A DNA stretch of 64,000 nt from Escherichia coli (GTDB lineage: Bacteria; Pseudomonadota; Gammaproteobacteria; Enterobacterales; Enterobacteriaceae), in NCBI RefSeq assembly GCF_044324785.1, contig NZ_CP172127.1. One strand, given 5' to 3'. Of this stretch, positions 16,741 to 63,088 are shown one piece after another. Made by a program: the position numbers and the translations under genes. The notes beneath the pieces are model-generated. The model saw only the letters and a program-made list of their open reading frames with translations, did no database searches and was not told where the DNA came from. Within the stretch, counting starts at the first letter, position 1. Every line of letters starts with the position of its first letter.

Positions 16741-16776
16741 AATAAAAAAGGCCCCCCGATTTGGGAGGCCTTATTG
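16741..16776 (-). promoter_or_regulatory. pheA transcription attenuator (terminator hairpin between pheL and pheA)
   Basis: Minus strand reads CAATAAGGCCTCCCAAATCGGGGGGCCTTTTTTATT. Confidence 0.85.
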
Positions 16777-16818
16777 TTCGTCTTCGCATTCTGTTTCACA
16801 CGACGAAACGCCTCCCAT

Positions 16819-16866
16819 TCAGGGGAAGGTAAAAAAGAATGCGAAGAAAAACGGTGTGTGTTTCAT
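16819..16866 (-). CDS. pheL: pheA leader peptide (15 aa, seven Phe codons)
   Basis: Minus strand ATGAAACACACACCGTTTTTCTTCGCATTCTTTTTTACCTTCCCCTGA = [15 protein letters not shown]. Confidence 0.9.
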   Translation of the reverse strand: [15 protein letters not shown]

Positions 16867-16920
16867 GTTTGTTTCCTTAAGTGACTTCAGTACAGTACCC
16901 GTACTGTTTTCACGCTGTCA

Positions 16921-20162: not shown

Positions 20163-20224
20163 CCTAAAGAATCAAGACGATCCGGTACGCGTGATTTTCT
20201 TTTCACATTAATCTGGTCAATAAC

Positions 20225-20253
20225 CTTGAATAATTGAGGGATGACCTCATTTA
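20225..20253 (+). promoter_or_regulatory. Sigma-32 heat-shock promoter of clpB
   Basis: CTTGAAT, 13 nt spacer, CCTCATTTA. Confidence 0.7.
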
Positions 20254-20291
20254 ATCTCCAGTAGCAACTTTGATCCGTTATGGGAGGAGTT

Positions 20292-22865
20292 ATGCGTCTG
20301 GATCGTCTTACTAATAAATTCCAGCTTGCTCTTGCCGATGCCCAATCACTTGCACTCGGGCACGACAACCAATTCATCGAACCACTTCATTTAATGAGCG
20401 CCCTGCTGAATCAGGAAGGGGGTTCGGTTAGTCCTTTATTAACATCCGCTGGCATTAATGCTGGCCAGTTGCGCACAGATATCAATCAGGCATTAAATCG
20501 TTTACCGCAGGTTGAAGGTACTGGTGGTGATGTCCAGCCATCACAGGATCTGGTGCGCGTTCTTAATCTTTGCGACAAGTTGGCGCAAAAACGTGGTGAT
20601 AACTTTATCTCGTCAGAACTGTTCGTTCTGGCGGCACTTGAGTCTCGCGGCACGCTGGCCGACATCCTGAAAGCAGCAGGGGCGACCACCGCCAACATTA
20701 CTCAAGCGATTGAACAAATGCGTGGAGGTGAAAGCGTGAACGATCAAGGTGCTGAAGACCAACGTCAGGCTTTGAAAAAATATACCATCGACCTTACCGA
20801 ACGAGCCGAACAAGGCAAACTCGATCCGGTGATTGGTCGTGATGAAGAAATTCGCCGTACCATTCAGGTGCTGCAACGTCGTACTAAAAATAACCCGGTA
20901 CTGATTGGTGAACCAGGCGTCGGTAAAACTGCCATCGTTGAAGGTCTGGCGCAGCGTATCATCAACGGCGAAGTGCCGGAAGGGTTGAAAGGCCGCCGCG
21001 TACTGGCGCTGGATATGGGCGCGCTGGTGGCTGGGGCGAAATATCGCGGTGAGTTTGAAGAACGTTTAAAAGGCGTACTTAACGATCTTGCTAAACAGGA
21101 AGGCAACGTCATCCTGTTTATCGACGAATTACATACCATGGTCGGCGCGGGTAAAGCCGATGGCGCAATGGACGCCGGAAACATGCTGAAACCGGCGCTG
21201 GCGCGTGGTGAATTGCACTGCGTAGGTGCCACGACGCTTGACGAATATCGCCAGTACATCGAAAAAGATGCTGCGCTGGAGCGTCGTTTCCAGAAAGTGT
21301 TTGTTGCCGAGCCTTCTGTTGAAGACACCATTGCTATTCTGCGTGGCTTAAAAGAACGTTACGAACTGCACCACCATGTGCAAATTACTGACCCGGCAAT
21401 TGTTGCAGCTGCGACGTTGTCTCATCGCTACATTGCTGACCGTCAGCTGCCGGATAAAGCCATCGACCTGATCGATGAAGCAGCATCCAGCATTCGTATG
21501 CAGATTGACTCAAAACCAGAAGAACTCGACCGACTCGATCGTCGTATCATCCAGCTCAAACTGGAACAACAGGCGTTAATGAAAGAGTCTGATGAAGCCA
21601 GTAAAAAACGCCTGGATATGCTCAACGAAGAACTGAGCGACAAAGAACGTCAGTACTCCGAGTTAGAAGAAGAGTGGAAAGCAGAGAAAGCATCGCTTTC
21701 TGGTACACAGACCATTAAAGCGGAACTGGAACAGGCGAAAATCGCTATTGAACAGGCTCGCCGTGTGGGTGACCTGGCGCGGATGTCTGAACTGCAATAC
21801 GGCAAAATCCCGGAACTGGAAAAGCAACTGGAAGCCGCAACGCAGCTCGAAGGCAAAACTATGCGTCTGTTGCGTAATAAAGTGACCGACGCCGAAATTG
21901 CTGAAGTGCTGGCGCGTTGGACGGGGATTCCGGTTTCTCGCATGATGGAAAGCGAGCGCGAAAAACTGCTGCGTATGGAGCAAGAGCTGCACCATCGCGT
22001 TATTGGTCAGAACGAAGCGGTTGATGCGGTATCTAACGCTATTCGTCGTAGCCGTGCGGGGCTGGCGGATCCAAATCGCCCGATTGGTTCATTCCTGTTC
22101 CTCGGCCCAACGGGTGTGGGGAAAACTGAGCTTTGTAAGGCGCTGGCGAACTTTATGTTTGATAGCGACGAGGCGATGGTCCGTATCGATATGTCCGAGT
22201 TTATGGAGAAACACTCGGTGTCTCGTCTGGTTGGTGCGCCTCCGGGATATGTCGGTTATGAAGAAGGTGGCTACCTGACCGAAGCTGTGCGTCGTCGTCC
22301 GTATTCCGTCATCCTGCTGGATGAAGTGGAAAAAGCGCATCCGGATGTCTTCAACATTCTGTTGCAGGTACTGGATGATGGGCGTCTGACTGACGGGCAG
22401 GGGAGAACGGTCGACTTCCGTAATACGGTTGTCATTATGACCTCTAACCTCGGTTCCGATTTGATTCAGGAACGCTTCGGTGAACTGGATTATGCGCACA
22501 TGAAAGAGCTGGTGCTCGGTGTGGTAAGCCATAACTTCCGTCCGGAATTCATTAACCGTATCGATGAAGTGGTGGTCTTCCATCCGCTGGGTGAACAGCA
22601 CATTGCGTCGATTGCGCAGATTCAGTTGAAACGTCTGTATAAACGTCTGGAAGAACGTGGTTATGAAATCCACATTTCTGACGAGGCGCTGAAACTGCTG
22701 AGCGAGAACGGTTACGATCCGGTCTATGGTGCACGTCCTCTGAAACGTGCTATCCAGCAGCAGATCGAAAACCCGCTGGCACAGCAAATACTGTCTGGTG
22801 AATTGGTTCCGGGTAAAGTTATTCGCCTGGAAGTTAATGAAGACCGGATTGTCGCCGTCCAGTAA
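20292..22865 (+). CDS. clpB: Disaggregase chaperone ClpB (857 aa); internal GTG at 20736 is the ClpB-80 start
   Basis: [18 protein letters not shown]...; two AAA+ modules with Walker A GEPGVGKT and GPTGVGKT; the ORF-track start at 20280 is 4 codons too long. Confidence 0.95.
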
Positions 22866-23307: not shown

Positions 23308-24849
<1,542 letters not shown>

Positions 24850-24934
24850 CCTTAAAGAAGCGTTCTTTGTAGTGCTCACACAGATTGTCTGATAGAAAGT
24901 GAAAAGCAAGGCGTCTTGCGAAGCAGACTGATAC

Positions 24935-25010
24935 GTCCCCTTCGTCTAGAGGCCCAGGACACCGCCCTTTCACGGCGGTAACAGGGGTTCGAATCCCCTA
25001 GGGGACGCCA
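24935..25010 (+). tRNA. gltW: tRNA-Glu (UUC) in the 16S-23S spacer
   Basis: GTCCCCTTCGTCTAGAGGCCCAGGACACCGCCCTTTCACGGCGGTAACAGGGGTTCGAATCCCCTAGGGGACGCCA. Confidence 0.95.
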
Positions 25011-25194
25011 CTTGCTGGTTTGTGAGTGAAAGTCACCTGCCTTGATATCTCAAAACTCATCTTCGGGTGATGTTTGAGATATTTGCTCTTTAAAAATCTG
25101 GATCAAGCTGAAAATTGAAACACTGAACAACGAAAGTTGTTCGTGAGTCTCTCAAATTTTCGCAACTCTGAAGTGAAACATCTTCGGGTTGTGA

Positions 25195-28099
<2,905 letters not shown>

Positions 28100-28191
28100 A
28101 CAACGCCGAAGATGTTTTGGCGGATGAGAGAAGATTTTCAGCCTGATACAGATTAAATCAGAACGCAGAAGCGGTCTGATAAAACAGAATT

Positions 28192-28311
28192 TGCCTGGCG
28201 GCCGTAGCGCGGTGGTCCCACCTGACCCCATGCCGAACTCAGAAGTGAAACGCCGTAGCGCCGATGGTAGTGTGGGGTCTCCCCATGCGAGAGTAGGGAA
28301 CTGCCAGGCAT
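28192..28311 (+). rRNA. rrfG: 5S ribosomal RNA (rrnG operon)
   Basis: TGCCTGGCGGCCGTAGCGCGGTGG...GGGAACTGCCAGGCAT, 120 nt. Confidence 0.97.
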
Positions 28312-45490: not shown

Positions 45491-46446
45491 TGAAGCAACT
45501 TTGGTTTGCCATGTCATTAGTGACAGGTAGCCTGTTATTCTCTGCTAACGCCTCGGCCACTCCCGCGTCCGGGGCGTTATTACAGCAGATGAACCTGGCC
45601 AGTCAGTCACTGAATTACGAGCTGTCATTTATCAGCATCAATAAACAGGGTGTTGAGTCTCTGCGTTATCGACATGCACGCCTCGATAACCGTCCTCTTG
45701 CACAATTGTTGCAAATGGATGGCCCGCGCCGGGAAGTGGTACAGCGCGGCAATGAAATCAGCTATTTTGAACCGGGACTTGAACCGTTCACGCTTAATGG
45801 CGATTACATTGTTGATTCTCTGCCATCGCTCATCTATACCGATTTCAAACGCCTTTCTCCTTACTACGACTTTATCTCCGTCGGGCGCACGCGTATTGCT
45901 GATCGTCTTTGCGAAGTCATTCGCGTGGTTGCCCGAGATGGTACACGCTACAGCTACATCGTGTGGATGGACACCGAATCGAAATTACCGATGCGGGTTG
46001 ATCTCCTTGATCGCGATGGTGAAACGCTGGAACAATTTCGCGTGATTGCTTTTAACGTCAATCAGGATATCGGCAGCAGTATGCAGACGCTGGCGAAGGC
46101 AAATTTGCCGCCGTTGCTTTCTGTTCCTGTAGGTGAAAAAGCTAAATTCAGCTGGACGCCAACCTGGTTGCCACAGGGTTTTAGCGAAGTTTCCAGTAGT
46201 CGACGTCCGCTACCGACGATGGACAACATGCCTATCGAATCACGTCTCTATTCCGACGGATTATTCAGCTTCTCGGTAAACGTTAACCGCGCTACGCCAT
46301 CGAGCACCGATCAGATGTTGCGCACCGGGCGCAGAACCGTCAGTACAAGCGTACGTGATAACGCCGAAATCACCATTGTCGGTGAACTGCCGCCGCAAAC
46401 GGCGAAACGCATTGCCGAGAATATTAAGTTCGGGGCAGCGCAATGA
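45490..46446 (+). CDS. rseB: Sigma-E regulatory protein RseB
   Basis: 318 aa with signal peptide; stop/start overlap with rseA. Confidence 0.95.
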   Translation: MKQLWFAMSLVTGSLLFSANASATPASGALLQQMNLASQSLNYELSFISINKQGVESLRYRHARLDNRPLAQLLQMDGPRREVVQRGNEISYFEPGLEPFTLNGDYIVDSLPSLIYTDFKRLSPYYDFISVGRTRIADRLCEVIRVVARDGTRYSYIVWMDTESKLPMRVDLLDRDGETLEQFRVIAFNVNQDIGSSMQTLAKANLPPLLSVPVGEKAKFSWTPTWLPQGFSEVSSSRRPLPTMDNMPIESRLYSDGLFSFSVNVNRATPSSTDQMLRTGRRTVSTSVRDNAEITIVGELPPQTAKRIAENIKFGAAQ

Positions 46447-46922
46447 TCAAAGAGTGGGCTACCGTCGTCTCCTGGGAAAACGGGCAGGCGCTGGTTAGTT
46501 GTGATGTTAAAGCCTCATGCAGCAGCTGCGCTTCACGCGCCGGTTGCGGTAGCCGCGTGTTGAATAAACTTGGCCCGCAAACCACGCATACCATTGTCGT
46601 ACCCTGTGATGAGCCGTTAGTGCCGGGGCAAAAAGTGGAATTGGGGATCGCCGAAGGCAGCCTGCTTAGCTCCGCATTACTGGTTTATATGTCGCCGCTG
46701 GTGGGATTATTTCTCATCGCTTCGCTATTTCAGCTACTCTTTGCTTCAGATATTGCAGCATTATGCGGTGCGATTCTCGGTGGCGTTGGTGGATTCCTGA
46801 TTGCACGTGGCTGCTCTCGAAAGTTTGCTGCCCGGTCTGAATGGCAACCGATCATCTTAAGCGTGGCATTGCCGCCTGGCCTTGTGCGATTTGAAACATC
46901 TTCGGAAGACGCGAGCCAGTGA
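46443..46922 (+). CDS. rseC: Sigma-E regulatory protein RseC
   Basis: 159 aa, membrane protein with Cys-rich N-terminus. Confidence 0.9.
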   Translation: MIKEWATVVSWENGQALVSCDVKASCSSCASRAGCGSRVLNKLGPQTTHTIVVPCDEPLVPGQKVELGIAEGSLLSSALLVYMSPLVGLFLIASLFQLLFASDIAALCGAILGGVGGFLIARGCSRKFAARSEWQPIILSVALPPGLVRFETSSEDASQ

Positions 46923-47119
46923 TTTCACTGGCTTTGTTGCATTTTGCATAACAAATGCGAGGACGTTTCCAGATACCACAATCCATACGGTATGAACATT
47001 TCCTCGCCTCAATGTTGTAGTGTAGAATGCGGCGTTTCTATTAATACAGACGTTAAGCTCAGAACAGCGACTTCTAAAAGCCTGGTTAACCGGGCATTAA
47101 GGCACAATAATCATACTTT

Positions 47120-48919
<1,800 letters not shown>

Positions 48920-48934
48920 CCCTTAGGAGTTGGC

Positions 48935-49909
48935 ATGGCGAATATGTTTGCCCTGATTCTGGTGATTGCCACACTGGTGACGGGCATTTTATGGTGCGTG
49001 GATAAATTCTTTTTCGCACCTAAACGGCGGGAACGTCAGGCAGCGGCGCAGGCGGCTGCCGGTGACTCACTGGATAAAGCAACACTGAAAAAGGTTGCGC
49101 CGAAGCCTGGCTGGCTGGAAACTGGTGCTTCTGTTTTTCCTGTGCTGGCTATCGTATTGATTGTGCGTTCGTTTATTTATGAACCGTTCCAGATCCCGTC
49201 AGGTTCGATGATGCCGACTCTGTTAATCGGTGATTTTATTCTGGTAGAGAAGTTTGCTTATGGCATTAAAGATCCTATCTACCAGAAAACGCTGATCGAA
49301 ACCGGTCATCCGAAACGCGGCGATATCGTGGTCTTTAAATATCCGGAAGATCCAAAGCTTGATTACATCAAGCGCGCGGTGGGTTTACCGGGCGATAAAG
49401 TCACTTATGATCCGGTCTCAAAAGAGCTGACGATTCAACCGGGATGCAGTTCCGGCCAGGCATGTGAAAACGCGCTGCCGGTCACCTACTCAAACGTGGA
49501 ACCGAGCGATTTCGTTCAGACCTTCTCACGCCGTAATGGTGGGGAAGCGACCAGCGGATTCTTTGAAGTGCCGAAAAACGAAACCAAAGAAAATGGAATT
49601 CGTCTTTCCGAGCGTAAAGAGACACTGGGTGATGTGACGCACCGCATTCTGACAGTGCCGATTGCGCAGGACCAGGTGGGGATGTATTACCAGCAGCCAG
49701 GGCAACAACTGGCAACCTGGATTGTTCCGCCGGGACAATACTTCATGATGGGTGACAACCGCGACAACAGCGCGGACAGCCGTTACTGGGGCTTTGTGCC
49801 GGAAGCGAATCTGGTCGGTCGGGCAACGGCTATCTGGATGAGCTTCGATAAGCAAGAAGGCGAATGGCCGACAGGTGTGCGCTTAAGTCGCATTGGCGGC
49901 ATCCATTAA
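48935..49909 (+). CDS. lepB: Signal peptidase I
   Basis: 324 aa, catalytic GDNRDNSADSRYWG box. Confidence 0.95.
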   Translation: MANMFALILVIATLVTGILWCVDKFFFAPKRRERQAAAQAAAGDSLDKATLKKVAPKPGWLETGASVFPVLAIVLIVRSFIYEPFQIPSGSMMPTLLIGDFILVEKFAYGIKDPIYQKTLIETGHPKRGDIVVFKYPEDPKLDYIKRAVGLPGDKVTYDPVSKELTIQPGCSSGQACENALPVTYSNVEPSDFVQTFSRRNGGEATSGFFEVPKNETKENGIRLSERKETLGDVTHRILTVPIAQDQVGMYYQQPGQQLATWIVPPGQYFMMGDNRDNSADSRYWGFVPEANLVGRATAIWMSFDKQEGEWPTGVRLSRIGGIH

Positions 49910-50151
49910 TAGCCCATCTTCGTTCACGTTGTCGCCGTTATGGCGACAACGTGAATTATTTATGAGATAAATCTCCCGTGGCTAACGACATCCCCCGTCG
50001 TTGTGTATAGAATATTCCCCCGAAGTTTAAGGTTGGCACCTCCAGGTTGCCACGGCACACGAAACAGCGTTGGTCCCCATATACCGGTAAACTGAAACTG
50101 CAGCGAAGCAGTTAGCAGAGCCATGTATATCAGGTCTGTTTCGTGTGCTGA

Positions 50152-51764
<1,613 letters not shown>

Positions 51765-51775
51765 GAGTAACTCCG

Positions 51776-52504
51776 ATGGAAGGCTGGCAGCGCGCATTTG
51801 TCCTGCATAGTCGCCCGTGGAGCGAAACCAGCCTGATGCTGGACGTCTTCACGGAGGAATCGGGTCGCGTGCGTCTGGTTGCCAAAGGCGCACGCTCTAA
51901 ACGCTCTACTCTGAAAGGTGCATTACAGCCTTTCACCCCTCTCTTGCTACGTTTTGGCGGGCGTGGCGAAGTCAAAACGCTGCGCAGTGCTGAAGCTGTC
52001 TCGCTGGCGCTGCCATTAAGCGGTATCACGCTTTACAGCGGTCTGTACATCAACGAACTTCTCTCCCGCGTACTGGAATACGAGACGCGCTTCTCTGAAC
52101 TCTTTTTCGATTACTTGCACTGCATTCAGTCACTTGCAGGTGCCACTGGTACGCCAGAACCCGCGCTGCGCCGCTTTGAACTGGCACTGCTCGGGCATCT
52201 GGGCTATGGCGTCAATTTTACTCATTGTGCGGGTAGCGGCGAGCCGGTAGATGACACCATGACGTATCGTTATCGCGAAGAAAAAGGGTTTATCGCAAGC
52301 GTCGTTATCGACAATAAAACGTTCACCGGAAGGCAGTTAAAAGCGTTAAACGCGCGGGAATTTCCTGACGCAGACACACTGCGCGCCGCGAAACGCTTTA
52401 CCCGCATGGCGCTTAAGCCGTATCTTGGCGGTAAACCATTAAAGAGCAGGGAACTGTTCCGGCAGTTTATGCCTAAGCGAACGGTGAAAACACATTATGA
52501 ATGA
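51776..52504 (+). CDS. recO: DNA repair protein RecO
   Basis: 242 aa, recognised sequence. Confidence 0.95.
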
Positions 52505-52515
52505 TGAGGATTGTC

Positions 52516-53247
52516 ATGGCTGAATTACTGTTAGGCGTCAACATTGACCATATTGCAACGCTGCGTAACGCACGCGGTACTGCTTACCCGGATCCGGTGC
52601 AGGCGGCGTTTATTGCCGAGCAGGCGGGAGCAGACGGCATTACCGTGCATTTACGTGAAGATCGCCGCCACATTACTGACCGCGATGTGCGCATCCTGCG
52701 TCAGACGCTGGATACCCGCATGAATCTGGAGATGGCGGTGACCGAAGAGATGCTGGCGATCGCCGTTGAGACGAAGCCACATTTTTGCTGCCTGGTACCG
52801 GAAAAGCGTCAGGAAGTAACAACCGAAGGCGGCCTGGACGTCGCTGGACAGCGTGAAAAAATGCGCGATGCCTGCAAACGTTTGGCGGAGGCCGGGATCC
52901 TGGTTTCTCTGTTTATCGACGCCGATGAAGAGCAGATCAAAGCTGCGGCAGAGGTTGGCGCACCGTTTATCGAGATCCACACCGGTTGCTATGCTGATGC
53001 CAAAACTGACGCCGAACAGGCGCAAGAGCTTGCGCGTATCGCCAAAGCCGCGACCTTTGCCGCAAGTCTCGGTCTGAAAGTTAACGCCGGACACGGTCTG
53101 ACATATCACAACGTGAAAGCCATTGCCGCCATTCCTGAGATGCACGAACTGAATATCGGTCATGCCATTATTGGTCGTGCAGTGATGACCGGACTGAAAG
53201 ATGCGGTGGCAGAAATGAAGCGTCTGATGCTGGAAGCGCGTGGCTAA
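52516..53247 (+). CDS. pdxJ: Pyridoxine 5'-phosphate synthase
   Basis: 243 aa [21 protein letters not shown]...; the ORF-track start at 52501 is an over-extension. Confidence 0.95.
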
Positions 53248-53627
53248 TGGCAATATTAGGTTTAGGCACGGATATTGTGGAGATCGCTCGCATCGAAGCG
53301 GTGATCACCCGATCCGGTGATCGCCTGGCACGCCGCGTATTAAGCGATAACGAATGGGCTATCTGGAAAACGCACCACCAGCCGGTGCGTTTTCTGGCGA
53401 AGCGTTTTGCTGTGAAAGAAGCGGCGGCAAAAGCGTTTGGCACCGGGATCCGCAATGGTCTGGCGTTTAATCAGTTTGAAGTATTCAATGATGAGCTCGG
53501 CAAACCACGGCTACGGCTATGGGGTGAGGCATTAAAACTGGCGGAAAAGCTCGGCGTTATAAATATGCATGTAACGCTTGCCGATGAGCGCCACTATGCT
53601 TGTGCCACGGTAATTATTGAAAGTTAA
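53247..53627 (+). CDS. acpS: Holo-[acyl-carrier-protein] synthase
   Basis: 126 aa [19 protein letters not shown]... Confidence 0.95.
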
Positions 53628-53653
53628 AAATAATACCGTTCTCTTTATAAAGT

Positions 53654-53692
53654 AAAACCCCCGAACTGGTAAGGAACGGGGGTTTTACTTTT
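53654..53692. terminator. acpS terminator, bidirectional
   Basis: AAAACCCCCGAACTGGTAAGGAACGGGGGTTTTACTTTTT. Confidence 0.8.
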
Positions 53693-54048
53693 TAACTTTA
53701 ATTTTGTGCAGCACACGATTCCAACGGAAATGATTATGGATCAATTTCGTTATCCTGTACAAGCAACTTGCAATCTCTGACATAAAAAACGCGAGCCTTT
53801 ACGAAGAAATCGACATTGATGAAAAGATTAACGTGACCGCTTTTTGATAAGTACATTAAAATCGGTTTCGTTATTGGCAATTTTGCTGTGCTTTACACCA
53901 TGCCACTGAATTCCCCCATTGAAACGAGTGGTGTCGTCAAAGCTCTGGTGTGGAGTGCAGCACTCGATTCCAATAACTCGCACGTTCAGTTTTGGGGAGA
54001 TGTAAGGGCTAATCTGAACGGCTGCATTCCTTGTTTAAGGAAAAACGA

Positions 54049-54129
54049 ATGACTGATTGCCGATACCTGATTAAACGGGTCATCAAAATCATCATTGCTG
54101 TTTTACAGCTGATCCTTCTGTTCTTATAA
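54049..54129 (+). CDS. shoB: Type I toxin ShoB (26 aa hydrophobic peptide)
   Basis: ATGACTGATTGCCGATACCTGATTAAACGGGTCATCAAAATCATCATTGCTGTTTTACAGCTGATCCTTCTGTTCTTATAA = MTDCRYLIKRVIKIIIAVLQLILLFL*; absent from the ORF track because of size. Confidence 0.85.
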   Translation: MTDCRYLIKRVIKIIIAVLQLILLFL

Positions 54130-54146
54130 CATAAGGAAACGTACTT

Positions 54147-54186
54147 AAGGCGCGTCAGGTTAACCAGCCAGGCGCGCCTTTAATAA
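54147..54186 (+). terminator. Putative shoB terminator
   Basis: GGCGCGTCAGGTTAACCAGCCAGGCGCGCC inverted repeat followed by TTTAAT. Confidence 0.5.
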
Positions 54187-54322
54187 TTATAAATAAATGT
54201 CTGGGCAGATATTATATAAATTCATTTGGTGAATAATTATGCTAATGTCATCAATTAAATAAATATAATGGCGTTAAGGCTTCCCTGTAAAATAATTAAC
54301 ACTCTACCTCCAGAGTAGAATA

Positions 54323-54619
<297 letters not shown>

Positions 54620-54638
54620 TTATACGCGCATTCTTTAC

Positions 54639-55487
54639 TCAGACCAGTTTTTTCACCAGCGCTTCACTATGACGAATACGTTCTGGTGCCAGTTCCAGAT
54701 CCTGCTGAATCAGCGCAATGAACAGCAAATCCGTTAACATTCCCTGCGCGTGGCAAGCAGAGATTGAAGCACTGTTTGTCGCTTGTTCTTCGGCAATGGT
54801 ATACAGGCAATGAGAAGCACGCTGTTGCAGGGCATTGGGAGTAAAGCCGGTAATCGCCAGCACTTTTCCGCCCACTCGCAGCATCTCATCTGCCGCCAGG
54901 TTTAACTCGCGTCGTACACCGGTGTAGGAAATGGCTAATAACAGATCGTCAGGGGACGACGCCTGTACTGTAGCGAGTAGCGCATGCATATCGCGCACTG
55001 CGGCAGCATTGAAGCCAATCTTCATCAGCTTCCAGGCAAAGTTTTGCGCCACCAGACCCGAAGCGCCAATACCGGTCAGAATTATCCGCCGTGCAGAGCG
55101 CAACATTGCCACGCACTCATGCAGCTTCTCTTCACTATTAACGTTTAGCGTTGCGTACATGGCGGCAGTATTTTCTTTAATCAGTTTTTCGCCGACCAGC
55201 CGTAACGGATCATCACCGCGGATTTGGTTATGAATGGGCACGGAGGGAGATTCCGGCTGGCTTGCCAGCGCTTCACTCAACGCCAACTTAAGTGCCGGAA
55301 AACCTTTATAGCCGAGTTTTTGCGCAAACTTCACGACGCTGGACTGACTGACTCCGGCTTCGTTGGCCAGTTGCTGAGAGCTTAAATGGCGCGCCGTATC
55401 AGGTTGTAGCAGCAGATAATCCGCCAGTTTTTTATCACTCTGGGCAAGCCCCTGGTAACGCTGACGGATACGAAGTAAGCCGTTCAT
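54639..55487 (-). CDS. yfhH: RpiR-family transcriptional regulator YfhH (HTH plus SIS domain)
   Basis: Start at MNGLLRIRQRYQGLAQSDKKLADYLL giving 282 aa; the ORF-track start at 55559 is an over-extension. Confidence 0.8.
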   Translation of the reverse strand: MNGLLRIRQRYQGLAQSDKKLADYLLLQPDTARHLSSQQLANEAGVSQSSVVKFAQKLGYKGFPALKLALSEALASQPESPSVPIHNQIRGDDPLRLVGEKLIKENTAAMYATLNVNSEEKLHECVAMLRSARRIILTGIGASGLVAQNFAWKLMKIGFNAAAVRDMHALLATVQASSPDDLLLAISYTGVRRELNLAADEMLRVGGKVLAITGFTPNALQQRASHCLYTIAEEQATNSASISACHAQGMLTDLLFIALIQQDLELAPERIRHSEALVKKLV

Positions 55488-55695
55488 ATCTTTCCTCGCG
55501 ATGAAATAGTGGCGACAACAGGCAATATGAGACACACGCGAGTGAATTTTATATTCCATTGCCGCTAATTGCCATGAATTAAAAATTCCAGTTAGCCATG
55601 ATGCGGTCGATTGTTGCCGGAAAAGTGATGATCTATCTGTTAGGCTATGTAGTAGCGAAAATTAATCAGGATGTTTCAGTCCAGAGGAGTATGGT

Positions 55696-56331
55696 TTGGC
55701 AACTCACGAGCGTCGTGTGGTGTTTTTTGACTTAGATGGAACATTGCATCAGCAGGATATGTTCGGCAGTTTTCTGCGCTATTTACTGCGTCGCCAACCG
55801 CTGAATGCGTTACTTGTCCTGCCGTTGTTGCCGATTATAGCCATTGCGTTATTGATAAAAGGTCGTGCGGCACGCTGGCCGATGAGTCTGCTTCTGTGGG
55901 GATGCACTTTTGGTCACAATGAAGCGCGTTTGCAGGCGTTGCAGGCCGATTTCGTACGCTGGTTTCGTGACAATGTTACCGCCTTTCCGCTGGTTCAGGA
56001 GCGATTAACCACCTACCTGTTAAGTTCCGATGCTGATATCTGGTTGATTACCGGCTCTCCGCAGCCGCTGGTTGAAGCGGTTTATTTCGATACGCCCTGG
56101 CTGCCGCGGGTTAATCTTATCGCCAGTCAGTTTCAGCGTGGCTATGGTGGTTGGGTATTGACGATGCGTTGCCTCGGGCATGAGAAGGTCGCGCAACTGG
56201 AGCGTAAAATCGGCACGCCACTGCGGTTGTACAGTGGCTATAGCGACAGTAATCAGGACAACCCGCTGCTTTATTTCTGTCAGCATCGCTGGCGAGTAAC
56301 CCCGCGCGGTGAACTCCAGCAACTGGAATAG
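55696..56331 (+). CDS. pgpC: Phosphatidylglycerophosphatase C (HAD family)
   Basis: 211 aa, HAD motif FFDLDGTL. Confidence 0.9.
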   Translation: MATHERRVVFFDLDGTLHQQDMFGSFLRYLLRRQPLNALLVLPLLPIIAIALLIKGRAARWPMSLLLWGCTFGHNEARLQALQADFVRWFRDNVTAFPLVQERLTTYLLSSDADIWLITGSPQPLVEAVYFDTPWLPRVNLIASQFQRGYGGWVLTMRCLGHEKVAQLERKIGTPLRLYSGYSDSNQDNPLLYFCQHRWRVTPRGELQQLE

Positions 56332-56343
56332 AGTAAAGCATAG

Positions 56344-58445
<2,102 letters not shown>

Positions 58446-58610
58446 TTAGTTAATTCTCTGTGTCGTGCGCGTCCCAGCTTGAAAAAACGTAATAATAGTG
58501 AAAGGTTTACTCATAAATGAGCGGCATTTTGCGTAAACCTGCGCCAGTTGGCAACTTATTACAGCCATTGGCGGCACGCGTTGCTAATTCTCGATGGTGA
58601 TTTTATTTCC

Positions 58611-58626
58611 ACGCAAACGGTTTCGT
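58611..58626 (+). promoter_or_regulatory. PurR operator in the purL promoter
   Basis: ACGCAAACGGTTTCGT matches the PurR box consensus. Confidence 0.8.
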
Positions 58627-58702
58627 CAGCGCATCAGATTCTTTATAATGACGCCCGTTTCCCCCCCTTGGGTACACCGAAAGCTTAGAAGACGAGAGAC
58701 TT

Positions 58703-61700
58703 ATGATGGAAATTCTGCGTGGTTCGCCTGCATTGTCGGCATTCCGAATCAACAAACTGCTGGCACGTTTTCAGGCTGCCAGGCTCCCGGTTCACACTAT
58801 TTACGCCGAGTATGTCCATTTTGCTGACCTCAATGCGCCGTTAAACGATGATGAGCACGCACAACTTGAACGCCTGCTGAAATATGGCCCGGCACTCGCC
58901 AGCCACGCCCCGCAAGGCAAACTCCTGCTGGTGACCCCGCGTCCTGGCACCATCTCTCCCTGGTCTTCGAAAGCGACCGATATTGCCCATAACTGCGGGC
59001 TGCAACAGGTAAACCGTCTTGAGCGCGGCGTGGCTTACTATATAGAAGCCGGTACGCTGACCAATGAACAATGGCAGCAGGTTACCGCTGAACTGCACGA
59101 CCGCATGATGGAAACGGTCTTTTTTGCTTTAGATGATGCAGAGCAGCTGTTTGCACACCATCAACCGACTCCGGTCACCAGCGTTGATTTGCTGGGGCAG
59201 GGCCGTCAGGCGCTAATCGACGCTAACCTGCGTCTTGGCCTGGCACTGGCGGAAGATGAAATTGACTATTTGCAGGATGCTTTCACAAAGCTTGGTCGTA
59301 ACCCGAACGACATCGAACTGTATATGTTTGCCCAGGCGAACTCCGAGCACTGCCGCCACAAAATTTTTAACGCCGACTGGGTTATCGATGGTGAACAGCA
59401 GCCGAAATCGCTGTTTAAGATGATCAAAAACACCTTCGAAACCACGCCGGATCACGTTCTCTCTGCTTATAAAGATAACGCCGCCGTAATGGAAGGTTCT
59501 GAAGTGGGCCGCTACTTTGCTGACCACGAAACGGGCCGCTACGATTTCCATCAGGAACCGGCGCATATTCTGATGAAAGTCGAAACTCACAACCACCCGA
59601 CTGCGATTTCTCCGTGGCCGGGCGCGGCGACCGGTTCCGGCGGTGAAATCCGCGATGAAGGTGCCACCGGACGTGGCGCAAAGCCGAAAGCTGGTTTGGT
59701 TGGTTTCTCCGTTTCCAACCTGCGAATTCCTGGCTTCGAACAGCCGTGGGAAGAAGATTTCGGTAAGCCTGAGCGCATTGTCACCGCGCTGGACATCATG
59801 ACCGAAGGCCCGCTGGGCGGCGCGGCATTTAACAACGAATTTGGTCGTCCGGCACTGAACGGCTACTTCCGTACTTATGAAGAAAAAGTGAACAGCCACA
59901 ATGGCGAAGAGCTGCGCGGTTATCACAAACCGATCATGCTGGCGGGTGGGATCGGCAACATTCGCGCCGATCACGTACAAAAAGGCGAGATCAACGTTGG
60001 TGCGAAGCTGGTCGTTCTCGGCGGCCCGGCAATGAACATCGGTCTTGGCGGCGGCGCGGCGTCTTCCATGGCATCTGGTCAGTCTGATGCCGACCTCGAC
60101 TTTGCTTCCGTACAGCGCGACAACCCGGAGATGGAGCGTCGCTGCCAGGAAGTGATCGACCGTTGCTGGCAGCTTGGTGATGCCAACCCAATCCTGTTTA
60201 TCCACGACGTTGGCGCAGGCGGTCTTTCTAACGCCATGCCGGAACTGGTGAGCGACGGCGGGCGCGGCGGTAAATTTGAACTGCGCGATATCCTGAGCGA
60301 CGAACCGGGCATGAGCCCGCTGGAAATCTGGTGTAACGAATCCCAGGAACGCTACGTGCTGGCGGTTGCTGCCGATCAGTTACCGCTGTTTGACGAACTG
60401 TGTAAGCGTGAACGAGCGCCATACGCGGTGATTGGCGAGGCCACCGAAGAATTACATCTTTCTCTGCACGATCGTCATTTTGATAATCAACCCATCGATC
60501 TGCCGCTGGACGTGCTACTCGGCAAAACGCCGAAGATGACTCGCGATGTACAAACGCTGAAAGCGAAAGGCGACGCGCTGGCCCGTGAAGGGATCACCAT
60601 CGCTGACGCGGTGAAACGCGTGCTGCATCTGCCGACCGTGGCGGAGAAAACTTTCCTGGTGACCATTGGTGACCGCAGCGTAACCGGCATGGTAGCGCGC
60701 GATCAGATGGTGGGTCCGTGGCAGGTGCCGGTCGCTAACTGCGCGGTCACTACCGCCAGCCTCGATAGCTACTACGGCGAAGCGATGGCAATTGGCGAGC
60801 GTGCGCCGGTTGCGCTGCTGGATTTCGCCGCCTCTGCCCGTCTGGCGGTCGGTGAAGCGTTAACCAATATTGCCGCAACACAGATTGGCGATATCAAACG
60901 CATTAAACTTTCCGCGAACTGGATGGCAGCGGCAGGTCATCCAGGCGAAGATGCGGGCCTGTATGAAGCCGTTAAAGCTGTGGGCGAAGAGCTTTGTCCG
61001 GCGCTGGGCCTGACGATCCCGGTGGGTAAAGACTCTATGTCGATGAAAACCCGCTGGCAGGAAGGTAACGAAGAGCGCGAAATGACGTCGCCGCTGTCGC
61101 TGGTGATTTCTGCATTTGCCCGTGTGGAAGATGTGCGTCACACCATCACGCCGCAGCTTTCTACCGAAGATAACGCATTACTGCTGATTGATCTGGGCAA
61201 AGGCAATAACGCGCTGGGCGCAACGGCGCTGGCGCAGGTTTATCGTCAGCTTGGCGACAAACCGGCAGATGTACGCGACGTCGCGCAACTGAAAGGTTTC
61301 TATGACGCGGTTCAGGCGCTGGTAGCACAGCGTAAGCTGCTCGCGTACCACGACCGCTCTGATGGCGGCCTGCTGGTAACGCTGGCGGAAATGGCCTTTG
61401 CTGGTCATTGCGGCATTGACGCGGATATCGCCACTCTGGGTGACGATCGCCTGGCGGCGTTGTTTAACGAAGAACTGGGTGCGGTGATTCAGGTTCGAGC
61501 CGCTGACCGTGAAGCCGTTGAAGTGGTACTGGCACAGCATGGGCTTGCTGATTGCGTCCATTATGTTGGCCAGGCGGTTTCCGGTGACCGTTTTGTGATT
61601 ACCGCCAACGGGCAGACTGTATTCAGCGAAAGCCGCACTACGTTGCGTGTCTGGTGGGCAGAAACTACCTGGCAGATGCAGCGCCTGCGTGACAACCCGG

Positions 61701-62904: not shown

Positions 62905-63088
62905 AGTGGCTCATTCACCGACTTATGTCAGCCCCTTCGGGACGTGCTACATAAAATTCGAATGACGCACAACAAGGTGCCTGCCGTCCAACTTCTGATA
63001 TCAGCGTAGCTATATCAACCATCGGGCGAAACGTCGAGTTAGGCACCGCCTTATTCCATAACAAAGCCGGGTAATTCCCGGCTTTGTT
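62905..63088 (+). ncRNA. glmY: Small regulatory RNA GlmY (GlmZ decoy controlling glmS)
   Basis: Starts about 12 nt downstream of the sigma-54 -12 element at AGTGGCTCATTCACC; ends at terminator AAAGCCGGGTAATTCCCGGCTTTGTTGT; position between purL and glrK. Confidence 0.8.

What the first reader, a model, noticed from the sequence alone, without database searches (positions are those of the whole stretch)
53693..54190. Type I toxin-antitoxin locus shoB/ohsC hidden in the acpS-yfhL intergenic region
The 695 bp gap between acpS and yfhL contains a 26-codon ORF (54049-54129) encoding MTDCRYLIKRVIKIIIAVLQLILLFL, a single-helix hydrophobic peptide that matches the ShoB toxin and is too short for the ORF track. 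In E. coli the shoB mRNA has a long 5' UTR and is repressed by the divergently encoded small RNA OhsC. I cannot place OhsC precisely from sequence alone; it should lie on the minus strand upstream of shoB, roughly 53700-53900, and may use the bidirectional acpS terminator at 53654-53692.
Basis: partly seen in the sequence, partly recalled or inferred. Interest (0 to 1): 0.5.

Follow-up and report, generated by a model that had tools for sequence, protein, structure and literature searches.

The report
Known shoB/ohsC toxin-antitoxin locus
This is the well-known E. coli shoB/ohsC type I toxin-antitoxin pair, here in its minority allele, where toxin mRNA and antitoxin RNA have changed their pairing sequences together.

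Summary
The 26-codon ORF at 54049-54129 encodes a peptide identical to E. coli K-12 ShoB, in the same acpS-yfhL gap, and RefSeq annotates it in essentially every complete E. coli genome. OhsC needs re-placing. It is a 77-nt RNA on the minus strand at 53649-53725 (Rfam RF02495, 101 bits, threshold 50), not somewhere in 53700-53900. Its first 20 nt are complementary to 53955-53974 in the shoB 5' UTR, 75-94 nt upstream of the start codon.

One point goes slightly beyond the literature I could read. The window carries the minority allele (about 31% of 5,426 genomes, including O157:H7). In this allele an 8-nt block of the pairing region differs from K-12 in both the antitoxin and its target. Six of the 20 pairs are changed on both sides. 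Among 65 loci where both sites could be typed, none mixes the two types. Predicted cross-pairing falls to near background. The difference sits in a roughly 400-bp island of 11-13% divergence.

Verdict: already known and ordinary as a locus. The possible two "specificity classes" are a modest untested lead.

The parts
53649..53725 (-). OhsC antitoxin sRNA (77 nt). The 5' end at 53725 is homologous to the annotated K-12 ohsC start.
   Evidence: Rfam RF02495 at 101.3 bits, threshold 50, full length 1-77. Aligns to K-12 b4608.
53649..53692 (.). Bidirectional terminator hairpin shared by acpS (+) and OhsC (-): 15-bp stem, 13-14-nt loop.
   Evidence: Inverted repeat I1. OhsC fold of -25.6 kcal/mol, z = -3.8. 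A weak mirror hit of the ohsC model on the + strand comes from this near-palindrome (also noted in PMC11264685).
53706..53725 (-). OhsC 5' seed, GUUGGAAUCGUGUGCUGCAC, which pairs with the shoB 5' UTR.
53733..53762 (-). ohsC promoter: -35 TTGTAC/TGTACA, -10 CATAAT, with 7 nt to the +1 at 53725.
   Evidence: Consensus scan. Same hexamers as PMC11264685 Table 2, where TTGTAC is the 33% variant and K-12 has TTGTAA.
53833..53862 (+). shoB promoter: -35 GTGACC, 18-nt spacer, -10 TAAAAT.
   Evidence: Consensus scan. Identical to the hexamers listed in PMC11264685 Table 2.
53869..54185 (+). Inferred full-length shoB mRNA of about 315 nt, with a 180-nt 5' UTR. Both ends are inferred, not mapped.
   Evidence: Position of the promoter and terminator. 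The length agrees with the ~320-nt full-length transcript reported for K-12 (PMC5668327, citing Fozo 2008).
53955..53974 (+). OhsC target site in the shoB 5' UTR, GUGCAGCACUCGAUUCCAAU, 75-94 nt upstream of the AUG.
   Evidence: RNAduplex -34.2 kcal/mol versus shuffled -16.4 +/- 2.2. Covariation across alleles.
54027..54042 (+). Predicted local hairpin in which UUCCUU pairs with the Shine-Dalgarno AAGGAA (54037-54042).
   Evidence: Predicted in the full-length form and in every 5'-truncated form; unpaired probability of the SD is 0.08-0.12. Prediction only. RBS AAGGAA as in PMC11264685 Table 2.
54049..54129 (+). shoB CDS: 26 codons plus stop, encoding a hydrophobic single-helix toxin.
   Evidence: RefSeq annotation under the match.
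54147..54180 (+). shoB terminator hairpin followed by UUUAAUAAUU.
   Evidence: Inverted repeat I2. At least six alleles across 69 loci all keep a stable hairpin, most at -21.7 to -24.9 kcal/mol, with paired changes.

Best explanation
This is the chromosomal shoB/ohsC type I toxin-antitoxin module of Escherichia/Shigella, intact in this genome. shoB is transcribed rightward from the GTGACC/TAAAAT promoter as an mRNA of about 315 nt with a 180-nt leader. It encodes a 26-aa membrane peptide that depolarises the cell when over-made (published for K-12). OhsC is transcribed leftward from the CATAAT promoter and ends at the acpS terminator. Its single-stranded 5' 20 nt pair with 53955-53974 of the shoB leader, far upstream of a structurally sequestered ribosome binding site. 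The most likely mode of repression is inferred by analogy with IstR-1/tisB and OrzO/zorO. In that model the primary transcript is translationally inert, and 5' trimming of about 40 nt gives the active ~280-nt form and frees the leader segment that contains the OhsC site. OhsC binding there then blocks ribosome standby loading and creates an RNase III substrate. Shown here: identity of the toxin, presence, position and fold of OhsC, both promoter hexamers, the complementarity, and its co-evolution across alleles. Taken from the literature: toxicity, repression by OhsC, the two transcript sizes, RNase III cleavage in the duplex. Inferred: transcript ends in this strain, and the standby mechanism. 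The window carries the minority 'W' allele of the pairing region (CAC[A/U]CGAUUC instead of K-12 CAUGCACCCU). It has one fixed internal U-U mismatch.
For: The peptide is identical to K-12 ShoB. The neighbours are the same, acpS and yfhL. shoB is annotated under the match in RefSeq genomes, and the region is present in 5,425 of 5,426 genomes, never on plasmids. OhsC scores 101.3 bits with the Rfam model. The promoter hexamers equal those tabulated in PMC11264685. The seed-target duplex is -34.2 kcal/mol, against shuffled seeds at mean -16.4, sd 2.2, best -26.6. The repeat is expected 0.02 times by chance. Covariation: 20 pairs, 6 changed on both sides, 99% of cells paired versus 22-48% when the partner is slid. 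Among 65 typed loci, 36 are K/K, 29 are W/W and none is mixed. In 5,426 genomes the counts are seed W 1,693 and target W 1,694; seed K 3,086 plus a G-U variant 506, and target K 3,708. The SD is predicted paired in all mRNA forms, and target accessibility rises from 0.16 to 0.39 on 5' truncation. Literature: ShoB toxicity and rescue by OhsC, with ~320-nt inactive and ~280-nt active transcripts (PMC5668327); 19-nt 5'-end pairing (PMC3919570); RNase III cleavage site in the duplex region (PMC6212723); depolarisation (PMC8309996).
Against: No expression data exist for this genome, so transcript ends are inferred from consensus hexamers and hairpins. The standby-site mechanism has not been demonstrated for shoB in any strain; PMC5668327 and PMC4147584 say its regulatory elements are unstudied. 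The mRNA folds are single-sequence predictions. The W-allele duplex is weaker than the K-12 one (-34.2 versus -41.4 kcal/mol) because of a central U-U mismatch, and nobody has shown that it represses. The primary papers (Fozo 2008, Kawano 2005) were not available to me, so their data are cited second-hand.
Confidence: 0.95

Rival explanations
1. Leader-ORF coupling, as in hok/mok/sok. An upstream ORF (ATG 53900 to TGA 54052, 50 codons) ends in ATGA, overlapping the shoB start codon. shoB would be translated only by ribosomes finishing this ORF, and OhsC, whose target lies inside it, would repress by blocking its translation.
For: The ORF exists and its stop overlaps the shoB ATG. It is intact with the same overlap in 69 of 74 loci. 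The OhsC target at 53955-53974 lies within it. [quoted passage not shown]
Against: There is no Shine-Dalgarno sequence before ATG 53900 or GTG 53888. The active ~280-nt processed form (PMC5668327) would start near 53905 and so lack that ATG. The substitutions seen among loci are nearly all amino-acid changing, including the whole W/K block (AACTL versus AALDS), so there is no sign of protein-level constraint. All loci are within one species, so an intact frame is weak evidence. No family match was found.
Confidence: 0.07
2. OhsC acts mainly by triggering degradation of the shoB mRNA (RNase III cleavage of the 20-bp duplex), not by blocking translation. The leader site is simply a cleavage handle.
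For: An RNase III cleavage site was detected in the shoB/OhsC duplex region in K-12 (PMC6212723). The duplex of about 20 bp is of substrate length.
Against: For tisB/IstR-1 and zorO/OrzO, cleavage accompanies translational inhibition rather than replacing it (PMC4147584, PMC5668327). The W allele has a central U-U mismatch splitting the helix into 10 + 9 bp, which would make a poorer RNase III substrate, yet it is fixed in about 31% of genomes.
Confidence: 0.25
3. The locus in this genome is a silent or decaying remnant, and the complementarity is only a leftover of an old duplication.
For: Deletion phenotypes for shoB/ohsC are generally not observed (PMC11264685 abstract). The W duplex carries a mismatch.
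Against: The ORF, RBS, both promoters and both terminators are intact. Six pairs changed on both partners while pairing was kept, which needs selection on the interaction. The shoB ORF bin shows 1 difference per 100 bp while the adjacent non-coding DNA shows 8-17.
Confidence: 0.03

Closest known systems
shoB/ohsC (ryfB/ryfC) of E. coli K-12 MG1655 (b4687/b4608)
   Same: Identical 26-aa toxin, with no differences between window and K-12 across the ORF in the alignment. Same position between acpS and yfhL. Same promoter -10 boxes, RBS, OhsC body and terminator, and the same geometry of 5'-end pairing to the leader.
   Different: An 8-nt block of the pairing region is replaced in both OhsC and the target, so 6 pairs are changed on both sides and one becomes a U-U mismatch. 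The ohsC -35 is TTGTAC rather than TTGTAA. There is 11-13% divergence over 53581-53980, and a rare terminator-hairpin allele.
tisB/istR-1 of E. coli
   Same: Divergent, non-overlapping sRNA. About 20-nt pairing through the sRNA 5' end to a site far upstream of a sequestered RBS. An inert primary transcript activated by 5' processing, and RNase III cleavage of the duplex (PMC4147584, PMC5668327, PMC7708055).
   Different: Unrelated sequences. tisB is LexA/SOS-controlled, whereas shoB/ohsC has reported CpxR boxes (PMC9600279). The standby site has been demonstrated for tisB but not for shoB.
zorO/orzO and zorP/orzP of E. coli O157:H7
   Same: The same divergent architecture and 18-nt 5'-end pairing. 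Closely related copies differ by a few seed nucleotides, and the sRNAs discriminate between them (PMC3919570). This is the best precedent for the W and K alleles being non-interchangeable.
   Different: Zor/Orz specificity variants are tandem paralogues in one genome. The ShoB/OhsC variants are alleles of a single-copy locus segregating in the species.
hok/mok/sok
   Same: A small membrane toxin, an inert full-length mRNA, and an upstream reading frame overlapping the toxin start.
   Different: Sok is a true cis-antisense RNA overlapping mok. Here the sRNA gene does not overlap the toxin transcript, and the upstream frame shows no sign of translation.

Membership tests
ShoB/OhsC type I toxin-antitoxin | 26-aa hydrophobic ShoB peptide | tested here: met
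   100% identical to K-12 b4687. Annotated as 'type I toxin-antitoxin system toxin ShoB' under the match in RefSeq genomes.
ShoB/OhsC type I toxin-antitoxin | OhsC sRNA (Rfam RF02495) encoded divergently and without overlap | tested here: met
   101.3 bits against a threshold of 50, full-length, minus strand 53649-53725, 143 nt from the inferred shoB +1.
ShoB/OhsC type I toxin-antitoxin | About 19-20 nt of complementarity between the OhsC 5' end and the shoB 5' UTR | tested here: met
   20 positions: 18 Watson-Crick, 1 G-U, 1 U-U; -34.2 kcal/mol, about 8 sd better than shuffled seeds. Six pairs covary across alleles.
ShoB/OhsC type I toxin-antitoxin | Conserved chromosomal context (acpS - ohsC - shoB - yfhL) | tested here: met
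   Alignment with K-12 and strain A10.
ShoB/OhsC type I toxin-antitoxin | Promoters and RBS with expression potential | tested here: met
   GTGACC/TAAAAT, TTGTAC/CATAAT and AAGGAA are present and equal the elements in PMC11264685 Table 2. This is a consensus match, not expression.
ShoB/OhsC type I toxin-antitoxin | Toxicity of ShoB on over-production and rescue by OhsC | not testable with these tools
   Published for K-12 (PMC5668327 and PMC8309996, citing Fozo 2008). Not known to me for the W allele pair.
Standby-site-regulated type I toxins (tisB-like mechanism) | RBS sequestered in structure, with the antitoxin site in a single-stranded upstream region exposed after 5' processing | tested here: inconclusive
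   Single-sequence folds predict a paired SD (unpaired probability 0.08-0.12) and target accessibility rising from 0.16 to 0.39 after truncation. There is no covariation or probing support for the mRNA fold.
hok/mok-type leader-ORF coupling | A translated upstream ORF overlapping the toxin start | tested here: not met
   The ORF and the ATGA overlap exist, but there is no SD, the start lies outside the processed active form, and the variation is non-synonymous.

The most novel reading that the evidence does not exclude
shoB/ohsC exists in E. coli as two old, non-recombining ~400-bp haplotypes: K-12 type in about 68% of genomes, and window/O157 type in about 31%. Their antitoxin seeds and toxin targets have co-switched, so that each OhsC no longer represses the other type's shoB. 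A recombinant within the locus would then de-repress the toxin. That would itself maintain the two forms as mutually incompatible 'specificity classes' and explain the island of 11-13% divergence with 32 fixed differences in otherwise freely recombining flanks.
Probability: 0.35. Interest if true: 0.4.

Novelty: already known. Interest (0 to 1): 0.15.

Why it matters
As a locus it does not add anything. shoB/ohsC has been characterised since 2005-2008 and is annotated in K-12 and by PGAP.

The small added value concerns the variable pairing regions. A 2024 survey noted that they vary widely and left open whether pairing potential is kept (PMC11264685, Discussion). Here the two regions vary in lock-step: every readable locus keeps a near-perfect duplex, and there are two major forms predicted to be poorly cross-reactive. 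This is natural compensatory-mutation evidence that OhsC-shoB pairing is under selection in the wild, even though no deletion phenotype is known. It also supplies a ready-made pair of alleles for testing antitoxin specificity.

Tried and rejected
1. Extended complementarity. RNAduplex of whole OhsC against the whole shoB mRNA gave a 70-nt 'duplex'. Beyond the 20-nt seed, the remainder is no better than shuffles: -20.3 versus mean -19.9, p = 0.43. Rejected.

2. Protein family search. NCBIfam gave no hit for ShoB or for the upstream ORF. The peptide is too short for Pfam. Identity rests on exact sequence and synteny.

3. Terminator scan. It found nothing because both hairpins have long loops or weak U-tracts. 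They were found as inverted repeats instead.

4. Search outside E. coli. A degenerate ShoB codon pattern over 100,044 species genomes hit only the E. coli representative and Escherichia sp. MOD1-EC7003. There is therefore no deeper phylogeny to test the mRNA fold. This agrees with the narrow distribution reported in PMC2887945, but relatives with amino-acid changes in residues 4-15 would be missed.

5. Upstream ORF as a mok-like leader. Considered and judged unlikely.

6. A 14-nt direct repeat near both promoters (53740-53753 and 53861-53874). It is not shared by K-12 and is probably chance.

7. CpxR boxes. A scan for GTAAA-N5-GTAAA found only one site, 53882-53896 on the minus strand, also present in K-12. 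I could not locate the published CB2.

8. Papers not held. Fozo 2008 (PMC2597788), Kawano 2005 (PMC549416) and Fozo 2012 were unavailable. I therefore cannot exclude that allele covariation was already noted there. A literature search for it was uninformative.

Full report
**What is in the sequence**

The + strand between acpS (53247-53627) and yfhL (minus strand, stop at 54323) is a 695-bp gap. It holds a 26-codon ORF, ATG 54049 to the stop ending at 54129. The ORF translates to MTDCRYLIKRVIKIIIAVLQLILLFL. The N-terminal half is charged (D3, R5, K9, R10, K13). Residues 11-26 are hydrophobic except for K13 and Q20.

A 26-codon ORF is not remarkable in itself, since 38 ORFs of at least 20 aa overlap this 2-kb stretch. 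The peptide, however, is identical to K-12 ShoB b4687. In the alignment, window and K-12 show no differences across the ORF. The neighbours are also the same.

A megablast of 53600-54400 finds the region in 5,425 of 5,426 complete E. coli genomes. It is always chromosomal, and shoB is annotated under the match.

**Where OhsC really is**

Rfam's ohsC_RNA model (RF02495) matches the minus strand at 53649-53725. The match is full-length at 101.3 bits, against a gathering score of 50. This is the position homologous to K-12 ohsC b4608.

The RNA has a largely open 5' region and a 15-bp terminator stem. It folds at -25.6 kcal/mol, z = -3.8 against shuffles. The guess that OhsC lies in 53700-53900 is not.

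The stretch 53726-53868 holds the two divergent promoters:
- ohsC: TGTACA, 17-nt spacer, CATAAT on the minus strand (53761 to 53733), ending 7 nt before the OhsC 5' end.
- shoB: GTGACC, 18-nt spacer, TAAAAT on the plus strand (53833 to 53862).

These are the hexamers tabulated for the locus in a survey of about 2,200 E. coli genomes (PMC11264685, Table 2). In that table the ohsC -35 TTGTAC seen here is the 33% variant, and K-12 has TTGTAA.

A + strand start near 53869 and a hairpin at 54147-54180 give an mRNA of about 315 nt. This agrees with the ~320-nt full-length shoB transcript reported for K-12 (PMC5668327, citing Fozo 2008). Both transcript ends in this genome are inferred.

**The pairing**

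The first 20 nt of OhsC are the reverse complement of 53706-53725. They are complementary to 53955-53974 in the shoB leader, 75-94 nt upstream of the AUG. In DNA this appears as a direct repeat with 2 mismatches; 2 matches were found in the window where 0.02 are expected.

The RNA duplex has 18 Watson-Crick pairs, one terminal G-U and one central U-U. Its energy is -34.2 kcal/mol. Shuffled seeds against the same mRNA give -16.4 +/- 2.2, with a best value of -26.6.

An apparent longer complementarity over the whole sRNA is no better than chance, p = 0.43.

**Two alleles that changed together**

The window differs from K-12 by an 8-nt block at both sites:

| Site | K-12 allele | Window ("W") allele |
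|---|---|---|
| ohsC seed region (+ strand) | GCAGCA-TGCACCCT-CAA | GCAGCA-CACGATTC-CAA |
| shoB target (+ strand) | GCAGCA-TGCACCCT-CAA | GCAGCA-CTCGATTC-CAA |

On the five distinct seed/target combinations I found, 6 of the 20 pairs are changed on both sides. 99% of cells are paired, against 22-48% when the partner is slid by 1-3 columns.

Both sites could be classified in 65 of them. Of these, 36 are K/K, 29 are W/W and none is mixed.

Allele-specific queries on the 5,426 complete genomes gave these counts:

| Site | W allele | K allele |
|---|---|---|
| Seed | 1,693 | 3,086, plus 506 with a variant that turns one A-U into G-U |
| Target | 1,694 | 3,708 |

These counts are matched totals, not per-genome linkage.

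Predicted duplex energies:

| OhsC seed | shoB target | Energy (kcal/mol) |
|---|---|---|
| W | W | -34.2 |
| K | K | -41.4 |
| W | K | -21.5 |
| K | W | -23.0 |

The two cross values lie inside the range of shuffled seeds.

The W form is carried by O157:H7 strains. It is therefore not rare or exotic.

[quoted passage not shown] It stated that sufficient pairing potential 'cannot yet be said' for this pair (PMC11264685, Discussion). The analysis here answers that point computationally. I could not read Fozo 2008 or Fozo 2012, so an earlier mention cannot be excluded.

**A divergence island**

Window versus K-12 shows 47 differences in 53645-54044. The 100-bp bin holding the shoB ORF has 1 difference, and the flanking genes have about 2 per 100 bp.

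In 27 loci with long flanks, all 32 fixed W/K differences lie in 53581-53980. Between-type divergence there is 0.11-0.13, and within-type diversity is 0.001-0.03. No flanking bin has a fixed difference, and in the flanks between-type divergence equals within-type diversity. Three loci have an unrelated right flank, which inflates diversity on that side.

Linkage over 250 bp is expected anyway. The informative facts are the identical block replacement at both partners and the sharp edges of the island. I do not know whether this reflects long-maintained polymorphism, selection against recombinants, or a single import.

**How it most likely works**

These points are taken from the literature on K-12:
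- ShoB over-production depolarises and kills (PMC8309996).
- OhsC abolishes this toxicity (PMC5668327).
- Only the ~280-nt 5'-processed mRNA is translated (PMC5668327).
- OhsC is predicted to pair through its 5' end (PMC3919570).
- An RNase III cleavage site maps in the duplex region (PMC6212723).
- CpxR binds two boxes in the intergenic region (PMC9600279).

My single-sequence folds predict the following. The SD AAGGAA (54037-54042) is paired with UUCCUU (54027-54032) in every form. In the full-length RNA, the 5' end (about 53884-53900) pairs with 53946-53961, covering part of the OhsC site. Removing about 40 nt raises the mean unpaired probability of the site from 0.16 to 0.39.

This fits a tisB/zorO-like scheme, in which OhsC competes with ribosome standby on the processed leader and marks it for RNase III. 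For shoB this remains an inference, and the reviews say so (PMC4147584, PMC5668327).

A hok/mok-style alternative exists on paper. A 50-codon frame from ATG 53900 ends in ATGA on the shoB start, and it is intact in 69 of 74 loci. However, it has no SD, its start would be lost in the active form, and its variation is non-synonymous. I give it low weight.

**Comparison and membership**

Every sequence-level defining feature of ShoB/OhsC is met: peptide, sRNA model, complementarity, synteny and expression signals. Toxicity and rescue cannot be tested here.

A degenerate-codon scan of one genome per species (100,044 species) found the ShoB N-terminal core only in the E. coli representative and in Escherichia sp. 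MOD1-EC7003, which is K-type. This matches the narrow distribution reported in PMC2887945.

**Verdict**

The finding is correct, apart from the placement of OhsC, and it describes an already known, annotated system. As a locus it is ordinary, and I score it low.

The residual interest is the co-switched pairing block. It is natural compensatory evidence for the interaction, and it hints at two non-interchangeable specificity classes that a four-way rescue experiment would settle.

Noticed in passing
window 53581-53980: The W and K haplotypes form a sharply bounded island of about 400 bp. It has 32 fixed differences and between-type divergence of 0.11-0.13, while no flanking bin has a fixed difference (27 loci). 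It covers the OhsC 5' part, both promoters and the shoB leader up to the target site.
   Followed up: partly
window 54147-54180: The shoB terminator hairpin has at least six alleles among 69 loci. Nearly all fold at -21.7 to -24.9 kcal/mol with paired changes, and they are not linked to the W/K type. The window's allele is rare, seen in 3 of 69 loci including the window.
   Followed up: partly
window 53900-54052 (+): A 50-codon upstream frame (54 codons from GTG 53888) has a TGA stop overlapping the shoB ATG as ATGA. It is intact in 69 of 74 loci, but it has no SD and only amino-acid-changing variation.
   Followed up: partly
window 54112-54114 (ShoB codon 22): A ShoB I22L variant (…QLLLLFL) is carried by 22 of 30 W-type loci and by none of the K-type loci. 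The window is W-type but keeps I22.
   Followed up: no
window 54262-54291 (-): The best promoter-like site in the gap (TTTACA, 18-nt spacer, TATATT; 10 of 12) points leftward and would read antisense into the shoB 3' end. Its -35 is not conserved in K-12.
   Followed up: no
window 53882-53896 (-): A CpxR-like box, GTAAAGCACAGCAAA (1 mismatch to GTAAA-N5-GTAAA), sits just downstream of the inferred shoB +1. It is identical in K-12 and may be the published CB1.
   Followed up: no
window 46000-60000: The best identity to any of 5,426 complete E. coli genomes is only 98.8% over 14 kb, and 98.3% in the shoB gap. The source may be a Shigella or a lineage absent from that collection. Its W-type core is nevertheless 98-99% identical to W-type gut E. 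coli contigs.
   Followed up: no
window 16742-63052 (several): Other Rfam hits above threshold: rRNA operon with tRNA at 23308-28309, StyR-44 at 25088-25187, RyfD at 20173-20311, Phe leader at 16742-16867 (-), AsrC antisense of rseC at 46407-47238 (-), rncO at 50022-50236, and GlmY at 62905-63052.
   Followed up: no
L013, L030, L036 (right flank, equivalent to window 54600-55780): In three metagenome loci, the sequence right of yfhL is unrelated to the window (about 48% identity). This suggests an insertion or rearrangement next to the locus in some strains. One RefSeq genome has an IS1 inside the region (H13).
   Followed up: no
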